This document shows, one piece after another, positions 7,076 to 27,690 of a DNA stretch of 64,000 nt. The stretch's first letter is position 1; each line of letters starts with the position of its first letter. The position numbers were made by a program, and so were the translations under genes. Origin of the DNA: a virus. The notes under the pieces are model-generated. The model ran no database searches. It was not told where the DNA came from and saw only the letters and a list, made by a program, of their open reading frames with translations. The stretch lies in IMG/VR virus record IMGVR_UViG_3300045974_000198, one strand, 5' to 3'.

Positions 7076-7192
7076 TTGCAGCACCTTATATGCTTACATG
7101 CACTAGATCAATTGGTAGATCACCAGTATTCAAAACCGGAAGAGCGGTTCAAGTCCGCACGCAAATGAACAAGCATATACAACTCGCTGCAA
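7076..7192 (+). ncRNA. Y-RNA-like element Y1 (non-permuted tRNA body, TCA-centred loop)
   Basis: TTGCAGC/GCTGCAA and ATATGCTT/AAGCATAT helices enclose D arm, anticodon-like arm and T arm; GCTTACATGC motif. Confidence 0.7.
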
Positions 7193-26246: not shown

Positions 26247-26272
26247 GCTTCCATAGCTCAGTAGGGAGAGCA
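26247..26272 (+). pseudogene. orphan 5' half of a tRNA (Thr-like body)
   Basis: GCTTCCA + D arm; complementary to TGGAAGC at 26894-26900. Confidence 0.7.
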
Positions 26273-26318
26273 CCTTAGTTATTAACAGCTAGGCTATATG
26301 CCACTGGAGGTAACTAAG

Positions 26319-26801
26319 ATGAAAGTTTGTGCAAAATGTGGTAATGAATTTAAGCTTTTCATAAAGATTGATGGTAAGCAGAGAAACTTAAAGAACAGAA
26401 AGTTCTGCTTAGATTGCTCACCATTTGGAGAACATAATACAAGAGGATTGATCTCAGACAAGAAAATACATGAAAGTGTTTGTATATCATGTGGTCGAGA
26501 TTTTGTATATGTGAGAGAAGCTGGGCATAGTAAAGGCAAGTGTAATACTTGCTGGACTAATGAAAAACGAAGAGCACTAAAGATTAAGGCTATTGAATAT
26601 TTAGGTGGCCAATGCTCAGTTTGTGGTTATAGCAAATGCACGGGTGCACTTGACTTCCACCATAAGGACCCTAAAGCAAAAGAGTTTGGCTTATCACATA
26701 AGAATTATATTAAGTGGGAAGCTATGAAAGCTGAATTAGATAAATGTATACTATTATGTGCTAATTGCCATAGAGAATTGCATTCTGGGCTGTTAGCTTA
26801 G
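26319..26801 (+). CDS. HNH homing endonuclease (paralog of 10554-10892)
   Basis: YLGGQCSVCGY, LDFHHKDP, KCILLCANCHRE; TAG stop lies inside the following tRNA. Confidence 0.85.
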   Translation: MKVCAKCGNEFKLFIKIDGKQRNLKNRKFCLDCSPFGEHNTRGLISDKKIHESVCISCGRDFVYVREAGHSKGKCNTCWTNEKRRALKIKAIEYLGGQCSVCGYSKCTGALDFHHKDPKAKEFGLSHKNYIKWEAMKAELDKCILLCANCHRELHSGLLA

Positions 26802-26862
26802 TGGCTTAAAGCAGGGCTCTCTAAAAGCCCGACCATGGGTTCAAGTCCCATACAGCTCACCA
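26787..26862 (+). tRNA. amber suppressor tRNA (CTA anticodon)
   Basis: Canonical 76-nt cloverleaf: GGGCTGT/ACAGCTC, GGGCT-CTCTAAA-AGCCC, ATGGG-TTCAAGT-CCCAT, ACCA. Confidence 0.88.
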
Positions 26863-26872
26863 ATTACGCTTC

Positions 26873-26904
26873 GGTCGTCGGTTCGACTCCGACTGGAAGC
26901 ACCA
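26873..26904 (+). pseudogene. orphan 3' half (variable loop, T arm, acceptor strand, ACCA)
   Basis: GGTC-GTCGG-TTCGACT-CCGAC-TGGAAGC-ACCA. Confidence 0.75.
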
Positions 26905-26949
26905 AGAAGTCCTACGAAAGTAGGCATATTACATCAAAAGGAGTTTCCT

Positions 26950-26982
26950 ATGAAAACGCTTTAGGTTGCAAGGCCTCCATAA
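26950..26982 (+). CDS. leader mini-ORF MKTL(TAG)VARPP(TAA)
   Basis: AAGGAG RBS 6 nt upstream; internal amber at codon 5. Confidence 0.45.
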
Positions 26983-27073
26983 CTCCATAAATTTAGGATA
27001 GCTCGAATTGACGCATAGAGAGAAATCTCTAGGATGAGGCTCTTAACCAATCCACTAAATTTGGAGAATAACT

Positions 27074-27370
27074 ATGGAAAGCATATTTGAGACAAGAGAA
27101 GAATATTTCGCCTTCGTTAAGGCATGGAAAACAACGTATAATTCTGAAGACAGGAGCCAGCTTACTTTTCAGCACTATCTATTATATAGGCTGTTTAAGG
27201 GCAAGGATCCTGAGGCATGTATAGCCAAGACCAGTTCTCAGTTTACAAAACAGAGAGCAAAGCACTGGTTGGAAAAATGTAAGCCTGAAAACCTTTCCTT
27301 GTGGCCGTTCGGTGGGTCAATCACCCCTGAGATGGCAACTAAAGCAAGAGTAATTATGGGGTATATATAA
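27074..27370 (+). CDS. hypothetical protein coupled to the Pth-like gene
   Basis: GGAG RBS; TAA overlaps the next ATG (TAATG). Confidence 0.7.
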   Translation: MESIFETREEYFAFVKAWKTTYNSEDRSQLTFQHYLLYRLFKGKDPEACIAKTSSQFTKQRAKHWLEKCKPENLSLWPFGGSITPEMATKARVIMGYI

Positions 27371-27690
27371 TGTAGACTCCATATACATATGTCTTTGTCC
27401 GCAAAGATATACCGCTAGCAGCTCAACTAGTTCAAAGTAGTCACGCAGCTCTTGAGCTTGGTCTTCAACTCCCTAAGCACAAGAGTCCCTCAAAGGTGTC
27501 TTCGTTAATTATGCTTAGCATCGCTAATGAAGAAAAGCTACTAATGATTAAAGATGAGCTCGATGAAAGAGGCATTCAAAGTTATATGTTCTTTGAGCCA
27601 GATTATAACATGGGATATACTGCTATTTGCACTGAACCCATTTATAACGACGATAGAAAATATTTCAAGAAGTTTCAACTCTGGAAATGA
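27370..27690 (+). CDS. Pth2-like peptidyl-tRNA hydrolase with in-frame TAG at codon 2
   Basis: ATG TAG then TPYTYVFVRKDIPLAAQLVQSSHAALE...FFEPD..GYTAIC, in frame with track ORF 27496-27690. Confidence 0.75.

What the first reader, a model, noticed from the sequence alone, without database searches (positions are those of the whole stretch)
26787..27690. Amber suppressor tRNA next to a Pth2-like gene that begins ATG-TAG
SEEN: a canonical 76-nt tRNA with CTA anticodon (26787-26862). About 500 nt downstream, a gene coupled to its neighbour by TAATG starts ATG TAG ACT CCA TAT... (27370). Codons 3-42 encode YTYVFVRKDIPLAAQLVQSSHAALE, and no ATG/GTG/TTG occurs before that motif, so full-length protein needs amber read-through. 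TAG still ends many ordinary genes here, so the genome is not recoded. KNOWN: YVxVRxD...Q..HA is the N-terminal core of Pth2-family peptidyl-tRNA hydrolases; prfB uses a stop-codon sensor to autoregulate release-factor activity. INFERENCE: a stop-codon-gated switch in which Pth is made only when the phage suppressor tRNA is active or host RF1 is limiting.
Basis: partly seen in the sequence, partly recalled or inferred. Interest (0 to 1): 0.9.

Follow-up and report, generated by a model that had tools for sequence, protein, structure and literature searches.

The report
Suppressor-tRNA-gated phage hydrolase operon
A large phage from pond water carries a tRNA that reads the UAG stop codon next to a small operon that appears to be switched on only when UAG is read through, which gives the unexplained suppressor tRNAs of normal-code phages a concrete job.

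Summary
A canonical tRNA(CUA) lies at 26787-26862. The gene at 27370-27690 starts ATG TAG, and no start codon follows for 40 codons.

It is neither an error nor decay:
- An independent contig reproduces it exactly.
- 37 of 37 distinct relatives with an early stop use TAG, 1-5 codons after the start. TAG is only 12% of ordinary stops in the same loci.
- The base after the early TAG is A or G in 36 of 37.
- dN/dS after the TAG is 0.03-0.16.
- A tRNA(CUA) is nearly always nearby, and in nine loci it is the only tRNA within 20 kb.
- Where the stop is TGA or TAA, the neighbouring tRNA is UCA or UUA (three cases).

The window has a second gate: a leader, MKTL-TAG-VARPP-TAA (26950-26982). It ends beside a hairpin that hides the ribosome-binding site of the next gene. 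Relatives without the in-gene TAG keep this leader.

The protein has a confident Pth2 fold, but the Pth2 catalytic lysine loop is missing, so its activity is unknown. The genome is not recoded.

Most likely the operon is translated only during amber suppression. Its purpose is unknown. I found no paper describing this. This scan has noted the same design on other DNA several times. Nothing here is experimental.

The parts
26247..26280 (+). 5' half of a split resident tRNA gene: acceptor strand GCTTCCA followed by the D arm
   Evidence: Read directly from the sequence. Its acceptor strand is complementary to TGGAAGC at 26896-26902.
26298..26801 (+). HNH homing endonuclease ORF (167 aa). Its 3' end overlaps the first 15 nt of the tRNA(CUA).
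   Evidence: phrog_2255 HNH endonuclease, E=1.9e-44; ORF list.
26787..26862 (+). Amber-suppressor tRNA: anticodon CUA, type I, discriminator A, CCA encoded
   Evidence: ARAGORN; Rfam RF00005, 60.3 bits. The amino acid it carries could not be inferred.
26868..26905 (+). 3' half of the split resident tRNA: T arm, acceptor strand TGGAAGC, then ACCA
   Evidence: Read directly from the sequence. Rfam sees a T-arm-like match on this stretch only.
26938..26982 (+). Leader: Shine-Dalgarno AAGGAG (26938-26943), then ATG AAA ACG CTT TAG GTT GCA AGG CCT CCA TAA (26950-26982), which reads MKTL-stop-VARPP-stop. The internal TAG is at 26962-26964.
   Evidence: Leaders of the same design lie 380-590 nt upstream of the homologous gene in L005, L006, L051, L052, L073, L093, L094 and L095. 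L071 has one with TAA and L056 has one with TGA.
26983..27066 (+). Hairpin. The 5' arm CUCCAUAAAUUUAG (26983-26996) starts at the base after the leader's TAA. The 3' arm CUAAAUUUGGAG (27055-27066) contains the Shine-Dalgarno GGAG of the next gene.
   Evidence: Minimum-free-energy fold. The Shine-Dalgarno site is paired with probability 0.99, against a mean of 0.54 for 154 control genes.
27074..27370 (+). orf98: a small helical protein of unknown function. Its TAA overlaps the ATG of the next gene (TAATG).
   Evidence: ORF list. Thirteen homologues sit directly upstream of the Pth2-like gene. Model pLDDT is 86 with no fold match.
27370..27690 (+). Pth2-fold gene (106 codons) with TAG as codon 2 (27373-27375)
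   Evidence: The early TAG is conserved in 37 distinct relatives.

Best explanation
The stretch 26787-27690 is a self-contained translational switch made of a phage amber-suppressor tRNA and a two-gene operon that can be translated only while UAG is read as sense. It has two gates in series.

Gate 1 is a leader with a strong ribosome-binding site. Without suppression, ribosomes stop at its 5th codon (UAG), and a hairpin keeps the ribosome-binding site of orf98 paired. With suppression, ribosomes go on five more codons to Arg-Pro-Pro-UAA. This ending terminates slowly, and it lies directly against the 5' arm of the hairpin. The paused ribosome opens the hairpin and orf98 is translated.

Gate 2 acts on ribosomes that finish orf98. 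They restart at the overlapping ATG of the Pth2-fold gene and at once meet UAG at codon 2. Only a second suppression event yields the protein.

Shown by sequence and comparison:
- the parts themselves and their conservation;
- the match between stop codon and tRNA anticodon;
- purifying selection on the frame after the stop;
- the Pth2 fold.

Inferred:
- that the tRNA is made and charged;
- that read-through happens;
- that RPP-stop pauses the ribosome;
- the function of the product.

By analogy with other leader-controlled genes, the most likely purpose is that the hydrolase-like product handles or limits what suppression causes. It might recycle peptidyl- or aminoacyl-tRNA, possibly the suppressor's own. 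That would let a standard-code phage keep a suppressor tRNA safely.
For: (1) The early stop is conserved and specific. Of 51 loci (50 IMG/VR hits plus the window), 33 have a start codon, 0-4 further codons, TAG, then 3-11 codons before the Y.F.R.D motif, with no start codon in between. Cultured phages GAP32, Serratia BF, RsoM2USA, ME3 and Arash show the same. Pooled and dereplicated, 37 of 37 early stops are TAG, whereas TAG is 140 of 1149 terminal stops in the same loci.

(2) The context differs from real terminators. The base after the early TAG is A 27, G 9, C 1, T 0. After terminal TAGs it is T 43, A 35, C 35, G 27. From established knowledge (Bossi 1983; Miller and Albertini 1983), a 3' purine favours amber suppression.

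(3) The frame after the TAG is translated: dN/dS is 0.03-0.16 in 24 pairs.

(4) The tRNA is linked to the gene. A tRNA(CUA) lies within 10 kb in 26 of 33 early-TAG loci, and elsewhere in the genome in one more. In nine loci it is the only tRNA in 20 kb. GAP32, BF, RsoM2USA and ME3 each carry exactly one.

(5) Stop codon and anticodon vary together:
- L079 has an in-gene TGA and its only tRNA is UCA. It is nested in a well-supported early-TAG clade.
- The L071 leader has TAA, with a tRNA(UUA) 0.6 kb upstream.
- The L056 leader has TGA, with a tRNA(UCA) nearby.

(6) The leader gate is conserved. Nine loci keep Shine-Dalgarno, ATG, 2-5 codons, TAG (twice in L005, L006 and L051), then [R/H/S]-P-P-stop. 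The Pro codons vary synonymously (CCT, CCA, CCG, CCC). In all of them the next gene's Shine-Dalgarno site pairs with the bases right after the leader stop, although the stem sequences differ between clades. Mean pairing probability is 0.93 against 0.54 for controls (Mann-Whitney p=1.4e-5).

(7) Homologues that lack the in-gene TAG keep the leader and the tRNA.

(8) The window is not recoded, and this is its only such gene.

(9) The XacN1 authors reported two CUA suppressors with no identifiable target (PMC5852040). Its homologue is preceded in frame by ATG AAG TAG.
Against: Nothing is experimental. Expression and charging of the tRNA, read-through and ribosome pausing are all inferred.

Two genomes rated complete keep the early TAG but have no canonical tRNA(CUA): G001 (a GAP32 relative) and G004. 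G001 has only an odd tRNA-like element at the syntenic spot.

The suppressor tRNAs are heterogeneous in sequence and discriminator base, so they are not one orthologous partner.

TAG ends 16% of the window's own ORFs, so strong suppression should be costly.

In XacN1, L054 and L085 an ATG follows the TAG within a few codons, so gating may be optional there.

The catalytic Lys loop of Pth2 is missing, so 'peptidyl-tRNA hydrolase' may be the wrong activity.

The whole-hairpin fold is not exceptional by energy alone (z = -1.55).
Confidence: 0.75

Rival explanations
1. The switch reads release-factor activity, not tRNA supply. The suppressor tRNA is made constitutively, and read-through at the two UAGs reports how much RF1 is free. 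The hydrolase-like protein is then induced when termination at UAG fails.
For: The architecture measures the competition between tRNA(CUA) and RF1, so either partner could be the variable (inference). A Pth-type enzyme would be useful when peptidyl-tRNA accumulates on ribosomes that cannot terminate (established role of Pth). Two complete genomes keep the TAG without a canonical tRNA(CUA).
Against: The tight physical linkage of the tRNA, often as the only tRNA in 20 kb, and the switch of the stop codon together with the anticodon show that the tRNA is the co-evolving partner. TGA variants would have to sense RF2 instead. No RF1 or RF2 gene or inhibitor was seen in the loci read.
Confidence: 0.12
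2. The start-(0-4 codons)-TAG element is a mini-ORF that merely damps translation. The real protein starts by reinitiation at a non-canonical codon just after the TAG, independently of any suppressor.
For: Ten of the 37 codons that follow the TAG are ATT or ATC, which are weak starts. Some relatives have an ATG a few codons after the TAG. Two complete genomes lack a tRNA(CUA).
Against: The stop is always in frame with the gene and always TAG (37 of 37), although TAA is the commonest stop in these loci. Most codons after it (ACT, AAT, AAC, GTA, GGC) are not starts. The idea does not explain the linked tRNA, the anticodon-stop matches, or the separate leader with the same stop codon.
Confidence: 0.06
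3. It is a broken gene or a sequencing error.
For: A stop at codon 2 is what a nonsense mutation would look like. Annotators of GAP32, BF, RsoM2USA and Arash truncated or skipped the gene.
Against: The sequence is identical in an independent contig. The stop is conserved across proteins only 30-49% identical. dN/dS is about 0.1 after the stop. The model has pLDDT 95.
Confidence: 0.01

Closest known systems
Stop-codon recoding in phages with phage-encoded suppressor tRNAs (TAG read as Gln 'code 15', TGA read as Trp 'code 4'; bioRxiv 10.1101/2021.08.26.457843; PMC9523058)
   Same: A phage brings its own suppressor tRNA. In-frame stops keep some phage genes silent until the tRNA acts. The proposed role is post-transcriptional control of expression.
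   Different: In those phages, dozens of late genes carry many in-frame stops and coding density under code 11 collapses. Here the genome uses the standard code. A single operon is the client, the stop lies in the first six codons outside the conserved fold, and a dedicated leader and hairpin sense read-through.
Arrest-peptide leaders that unmask a downstream ribosome-binding site (SecM-secA, ErmCL-ermC, the RAPP-type ApdA/ApdP; recalled from the literature)
   Same: A short leader ORF has its own Shine-Dalgarno site and a conserved C-terminal Arg/x-Pro-Pro motif. A hairpin hides the next gene's Shine-Dalgarno site within reach of the paused ribosome.
   Different: The input is neither a drug, a metabolite nor secretion force. 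It is whether an in-frame stop codon upstream of the arrest motif is read through. The motif sits directly before a stop codon. Arrest itself was not tested.
prfB (RF2) autoregulation through an early in-frame UGA
   Same: An early in-frame stop inside a translation-factor gene makes its expression depend on how that stop is decoded.
   Different: prfB uses a +1 frameshift, and its product acts on that same stop, which closes a proven feedback loop. Here decoding stays in frame and uses a dedicated tRNA. Whether the product feeds back on suppression is unknown.
Peptidyl-tRNA hydrolase 2 (Pfam PF01981; PDB 3erj, 2zv3, 1q7s, 1wn2, 1xty) and PTRHD1
   Same: The fold is the same (TM 0.75-0.85, Foldseek probability 1.0). 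The R-x-D and Q-x-x-H-A motifs are shared. PTRHD1 is the best Swiss-Prot structural match, at 24-26% identity.
   Different: The loop that carries the GK(G)K lysine of Pth2 is two residues shorter, and A or Q occupies the aligned position. The window's protein scores below Pfam's cut-off. Its activity is unknown.
Lambda bar minigenes and Pth (recalled from the literature)
   Same: Two- to three-codon ORFs that end in a stop are known to release short peptidyl-tRNAs, whose recycling needs Pth. The start-x-TAG opening of this gene has that shape.
   Different: The bar minigenes are not fused in frame to a hydrolase gene, and no suppressor tRNA is involved.

Membership tests
Pth2 (PF01981) | Score at or above the Pfam gathering threshold | tested here: not met
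   The window's protein scores 19.8 bits against a cut-off of 23. The XacN1 homologue passes with 25.3 bits. A family profile matches solved Pth2 chains at E=6e-5 and 8e-4.
Pth2 (PF01981) | Pth2 alpha/beta fold | tested here: met
   The model has pLDDT 95.4. TM is 0.75-0.85 to 3erj, 2zv3, 1q7s, 1rlk and 1wn2, with Foldseek probability 1.0. Archaeal Pth2 and PTRHD1 fill the Swiss-Prot list.
Pth2 (PF01981) | N-terminal motif R-x-D-L ... A-Q-x-x-H-A | tested here: met
   R11, Q22 and H25 are invariant and D13 is nearly invariant in 47 sequences. They align to the same motif in Pth2 chains.
Pth2 (PF01981) | Catalytic Lys in the G-K loop (K18 of Sulfolobus Pth2, recalled from the literature) | tested here: not met
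   The profile alignment shows a two-residue deletion of this loop. The aligned position is A18 in the window and Q in the family consensus.
Pth2 (PF01981) | Catalytic Asp of the D-A-G motif (D86 of Sulfolobus Pth2, recalled from the literature) | tested here: inconclusive
   The nearly invariant E76-P-D78 aligns within one residue of K-D-A-G. No structural superposition of side chains was made.
Pth2 (PF01981) | Hydrolysis of peptidyl-tRNA | not testable with these tools
   This needs an enzyme assay.
Recoded ('code 15') phage | Phage-encoded tRNA(CUA) | tested here: met
Recoded ('code 15') phage | Many genes with in-frame TAG, with coding density restored only when TAG is read as sense | tested here: not met
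   Coverage is 0.76 under code 11. The gain is about equal whichever stop is made sense. TAG ends 14 of 86 ORFs. No related locus shows a TAG-specific gain.
Arrest-peptide leader attenuator | Short leader ORF with its own Shine-Dalgarno site upstream of the regulated gene, conserved at the peptide level | tested here: met
   Nine loci end in [R/H/S]-P-P-stop, with synonymous Pro codons.
Arrest-peptide leader attenuator | Hairpin that masks the downstream Shine-Dalgarno site and lies within the footprint of a ribosome at the leader's end | tested here: met
   The 5' arm starts 0-6 nt after the leader stop. The Shine-Dalgarno site is paired with probability 0.68-1.0 in 9 loci, against a mean of 0.54 for controls.
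Arrest-peptide leader attenuator | Ribosome arrest demonstrated at the motif | not testable with these tools
   This needs toeprinting or ribosome profiling.
prfB-type autoregulation | The product acts on the very stop codon that gates its own synthesis | not testable with these tools
   There is no evidence either way. The recoding here is in-frame read-through, not a +1 frameshift.

The most novel reading that the evidence does not exclude
The cassette is an autonomous homeostat for nonsense suppression. The leader and the early stop measure how efficiently UAG is being read through. The output is a Pth2-fold enzyme that has lost the classical catalytic lysine, and it acts on the suppressor tRNA itself, either deacylating it or releasing short peptides from it. 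Suppression is thereby held at a low set level. This would explain three things: how standard-code phages, and some bacteria, can carry a suppressor tRNA at all; why the tRNA and the gene travel together even where the in-gene stop is lost; and why the cassette also sits alone among housekeeping genes in a Planctomycetota chromosome.
Probability: 0.2. Interest if true: 0.92.

Novelty: new variant of a known kind. Interest (0 to 1): 0.85.

Why it matters
Many standard-code phages carry suppressor tRNAs with no known target. The XacN1 authors looked for a target and found none (PMC5852040). This gene and its leader provide a conserved natural client.

It would also be a natural example of gene expression locked to a private tRNA-codon pair, which is the principle that synthetic biology uses for genetic firewalls. 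And it would add a new input, stop-codon read-through, to leader-peptide attenuation.

It matters for annotation too. Gene callers truncate or miss this gene in cultured phages, and one record labels the CUA tRNA as tRNA-Phe.

The family is large: 3701 cluster representatives at E<=0.001. Several host-phage pairs that carry it can be grown, so the model can be tested directly.

Tried and rejected
- **Amino-acid identity of the suppressor.** The 35 distinct CUA tRNAs were compared with 577 other tRNAs of the same loci. The nearest types scatter over Met, Lys, Arg, Phe, Val, Thr and Trp, and the discriminator base varies, so no call was possible.
- **orf98 function.** There are no Pfam or PHROG hits. 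The model is confident and helical, but it has no fold match in PDB or the ESM Atlas.
- **orf98 with the Pth2-like protein as a complex.** The job returned no verdict, so it is not used as evidence either way.
- **Near-identical DNA in the phage collection.** Only a short HNH-related stretch matched.
- **A single-protein search of IMG/VR.** It found only 2 loci. The 47-row alignment was too diverse for the locus finder.
- **A client for the window's second suppressor-like tRNA (tca, 7095-7168).** No early TGA gene or TGA leader was found in the window.
- **Promoter and terminator scans around the operon.** They were no better than shuffled sequence.
- **Runs X2-X4.** They hold only small parts of the stretch, from relatives. 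No habitat or expression claim is based on them. The RNA-library contig (X4) may be DNA carry-over.
- **Homology of the ORF beside the Planctomycetota cassette to orf98.** None was found.
- **Whole-genome search of the window's own genome.** No genome is held for it.
Full report
**1. The observation**

ARAGORN finds 25 tRNA genes in the window. One is a 76-nt tRNA with anticodon CTA at 26787-26862. Rfam's tRNA model scores it 60.3 bits with a complete cloverleaf and an encoded CCA.

About 500 nt downstream the sequence reads TAATG TAG ACT CCA TAT:
- The upstream ORF (27074-27370) ends in TAA.
- The last A of that TAA is the A of an ATG at 27370.
- Codon 2 (27373-27375) is TAG.
- The frame then runs open to 27690.

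The next in-frame start is a GTG 40 codons later. A scan of the whole window for 'start, up to five codons, stop, long open frame' shows this is the only credible gene with no start soon after the stop.

The window is not recoded. ORFs under code 11 cover 0.76 of the plus strand. Reassigning TAG, TGA or TAA gives similar small gains. TAG ends 14 of 86 long ORFs.

A Logan contig of a pond-metagenome run, probably the source sample, covers 27038-27431 without a difference.

**2. The protein**

Read through, the product has 106 residues.
- Pfam PTH2 matches weakly (E=9e-4, below the cut-off).
- A profile of 47 relatives hits solved Pth2 chains at E=6e-5.
- An AlphaFold model built on that alignment has pLDDT 95.4. 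It superposes on archaeal Pth2 structures and human Bit1 with TM 0.75-0.85.
- PTRHD1 is the best Swiss-Prot match.

R11, Q22 and H25 are invariant. D13, E76 and D78 are nearly so. The loop that carries the G-K lysine of Pth2 is two residues shorter, with A or Q at the aligned position. The fold is therefore Pth2, but the chemistry is open.

The family is large: 3701 representatives at E<=0.001 among 1.84 billion proteins.

**3. The early stop is a conserved feature**

tblastn finds the family in 40 phage records, mostly jumbo phages, covering residues 5-106. The openings in cultured phages are:

| Phage | Opening codons |
|---|---|
| GAP32 | ATG GCA CAA TAG |
| Serratia BF | ATG ACG CAC TAG |
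| RsoM2USA | ATG TTG TAG |
| ME3 | ATG ACT TAG |
| Salmonella phage Arash | ATG CTG TAG |

Annotators truncated or skipped the gene in these records.

A DNA-level search of IMG/VR, which does not depend on gene calling, returned 50 loci. With the window that makes 51:
- 33 have the early TAG with no start codon before the conserved motif.
- 16 have an ordinary start.
- 1 has an early TGA.
- 1 is unclear.

L097, first scored as ordinary, is a fusion protein that opens ATG TTG TAG.

Pooled and dereplicated, there are 37 distinct early-stop genes:
- All 37 stops are TAG, 1-5 codons after the start. TAG is only 12% of 1149 terminal stops in the same loci.
- The next base is A 27, G 9, C 1, T 0. 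After terminal TAGs it is T 43, A 35, C 35, G 27.

After the TAG, dN/dS is 0.03-0.16.

On a maximum-likelihood tree the early TAG occurs on both sides of the midpoint root. Ordinary starts are nested in several places.

**4. The tRNA is the partner**

- A tRNA(CUA) lies within 10 kb, on the same strand, in 26 of the 33 early-TAG loci. In nine loci it is the only tRNA in the 20 kb read.
- One more genome has it elsewhere.
- GAP32, BF, RsoM2USA and ME3 each have one.
- Arash has one that its record labels tRNA-Phe.
- XacN1 has two, for which its authors could find no target. Its homologue is preceded in frame by ATG AAG TAG.

Three loci changed the stop and the anticodon together:
- L079 has an in-gene TGA, and its only tRNA is UCA.
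- L071 has TAA in its leader, with a tRNA(UUA) just upstream.
- L056 has TGA in its leader, with a tRNA(UCA) nearby.

Exceptions:
- Two genomes rated complete keep the TAG without a canonical tRNA(CUA).
- Two fragments could not be judged.

**5. A second gate in the window**

A note on this same window (e1-5356674) led me to look between the tRNA and the operon. It holds AAGGAG, six bases, then ATG AAA ACG CTT TAG GTT GCA AGG CCT CCA TAA (26938-26982).

Leaders of this design lie 380-590 nt upstream of the homologous gene in nine loci:
- MKL-TAG-I[H/R]PP-TAA in L093, L094 and L095.
- M..-TAG-GF[T/S]-TAG-..RPP-TAA in L005, L006 and L051.
- MKR-TAG-THSNRPP in L052.
- A similar leader in L073, plus the window's own.

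The opposite strands of about 1 Mb give seven chance matches. The Pro codons vary synonymously, so the peptide is under selection.

In every case the bases right after the leader's last stop pair with the Shine-Dalgarno site of the next gene, although the stems differ in sequence between clades. That Shine-Dalgarno site is paired with mean probability 0.93, against 0.54 for 154 control genes (p=1.4e-5).

The loci whose Pth2-like gene has an ordinary start are the ones that keep this leader. The window and L052 have both gates.

The gene after the leader, orf98, has 13 recognisable homologues, always directly upstream of the Pth2-like gene. It is helical and has no known fold match.

**6. Mechanism**

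The parts fit a two-step switch.
1. Ribosomes on the leader stop at UAG unless the suppressor acts.
2. If they read through, they reach R-P-P-UAA. From established knowledge, C-terminal Pro-Pro slows termination, and RAPP-type motifs arrest ribosomes. The ribosome then covers the 5' arm of the hairpin and frees the ribosome-binding site of orf98.
3. Termination at the orf98 TAA places ribosomes on the overlapping ATG, where the next codon is UAG again.

The steps that involve the living cell are all inferred.

What the product is for remains open. By analogy with ermC, tnaC, secM and prfB, a gene induced by a signal usually deals with that signal. I therefore favour a role in handling or limiting suppression, with about 0.2 for a true feedback loop on the suppressor tRNA.

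**7. Beyond phages**

Four bacterial MAG contigs carry the same early TAG, and three of them have a tRNA(CUA) within 1 kb. One lies on a 1.68-Mb Planctomycetota contig, between MBOAT/DUF1574 genes and a 2-oxoacid dehydrogenase operon, with no phage genes nearby.

**8. Prior knowledge**

Four full-text searches and four papers read found no description of this gene, its early stop or the leader. The known cases concern genome-wide recoding.

This scan has met the same design repeatedly on other DNA. My survey was made independently of those notes, except for the lead to the leader.

**9. Verdict**

I rate it a new variant of known kinds, combining suppressor-dependent expression with leader-peptide attenuation. 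Interest is high, and it can be tested in cultured phages.

Noticed in passing
window 26247-26905: The HNH gene and the tRNA(CUA) sit between two halves of another tRNA gene. The 5' half carries acceptor strand GCTTCCA and the D arm at 26247-26280. The 3' half carries the T arm and TGGAAGC-ACCA at 26868-26905. The suppressor may therefore have arrived on a homing-endonuclease cassette that split a resident tRNA, or the whole stretch may be an intron-like insert.
   Followed up: partly
window 7095-7168: ARAGORN calls a second suppressor-like tRNA (anticodon tca, labelled SeC). I found no gene or leader in the window with an early in-frame TGA that it could serve.
   Followed up: partly
L065:14022-14108: This GAP32-like genome is complete and has no canonical tRNA(CUA). 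The syntenic spot holds a weak tRNA-like element (24 bits). It folds as a cloverleaf with a 6-bp anticodon stem and an 11-nt loop that contains CUA.
   Followed up: partly
L064:12476-12726: Three different tRNA(CUA) genes lie in tandem, 2.5 kb downstream of an early-TAG homologue. They are the only tRNAs in that locus.
   Followed up: no
L112:3980-4980: On a 1.68-Mb Planctomycetota contig, an early-TAG Pth2-like gene, a 153-aa ORF and a tRNA(CUA) form a small island between housekeeping genes (MBOAT, DUF1574, 2-oxoacid dehydrogenase E2/E1). No phage genes are nearby.
   Followed up: partly
L107:667-1506 (XacN1 ORF364) and L097:9473-10285: In these two phages the Pth2-like domain is the C-terminal half of a protein of about 270 aa. 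The N-terminal half has His/Asp motifs (WHDIGK, HFPNHA) that Pfam does not recognise.
   Followed up: partly
L109:2501-2575 (Salmonella phage Arash): The GenBank record labels this tRNA as tRNA-Phe, but ARAGORN reads the anticodon as CTA. The Pth2-like gene is split into a 50-aa 'peptidyl-tRNA hydrolase' and a hypothetical protein.
   Followed up: no
L087:10318-10344: A leader-like ORF, ML-TAG-IHKPP-stop, with a Shine-Dalgarno site lies directly downstream of the Pth2-like gene. It may gate the next gene.
   Followed up: no
L070:9950-10010: The homologue appears frameshifted near its start. An ATG-led frame ends in TAG one base out of register with the conserved frame. This may be a sequencing error or a damaged copy.
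   Followed up: no
window 26961-27150, compared with run X4: A contig from a permafrost RNA library matches the leader's 3' half and the anti-Shine-Dalgarno arm exactly (26961-26989), and matches the Shine-Dalgarno arm plus the start of orf98 (27061-27150). The 71-nt hairpin loop is replaced by 37 other bases, so the stems are kept and the loop is free to vary. DNA carry-over cannot be excluded.
   Followed up: no
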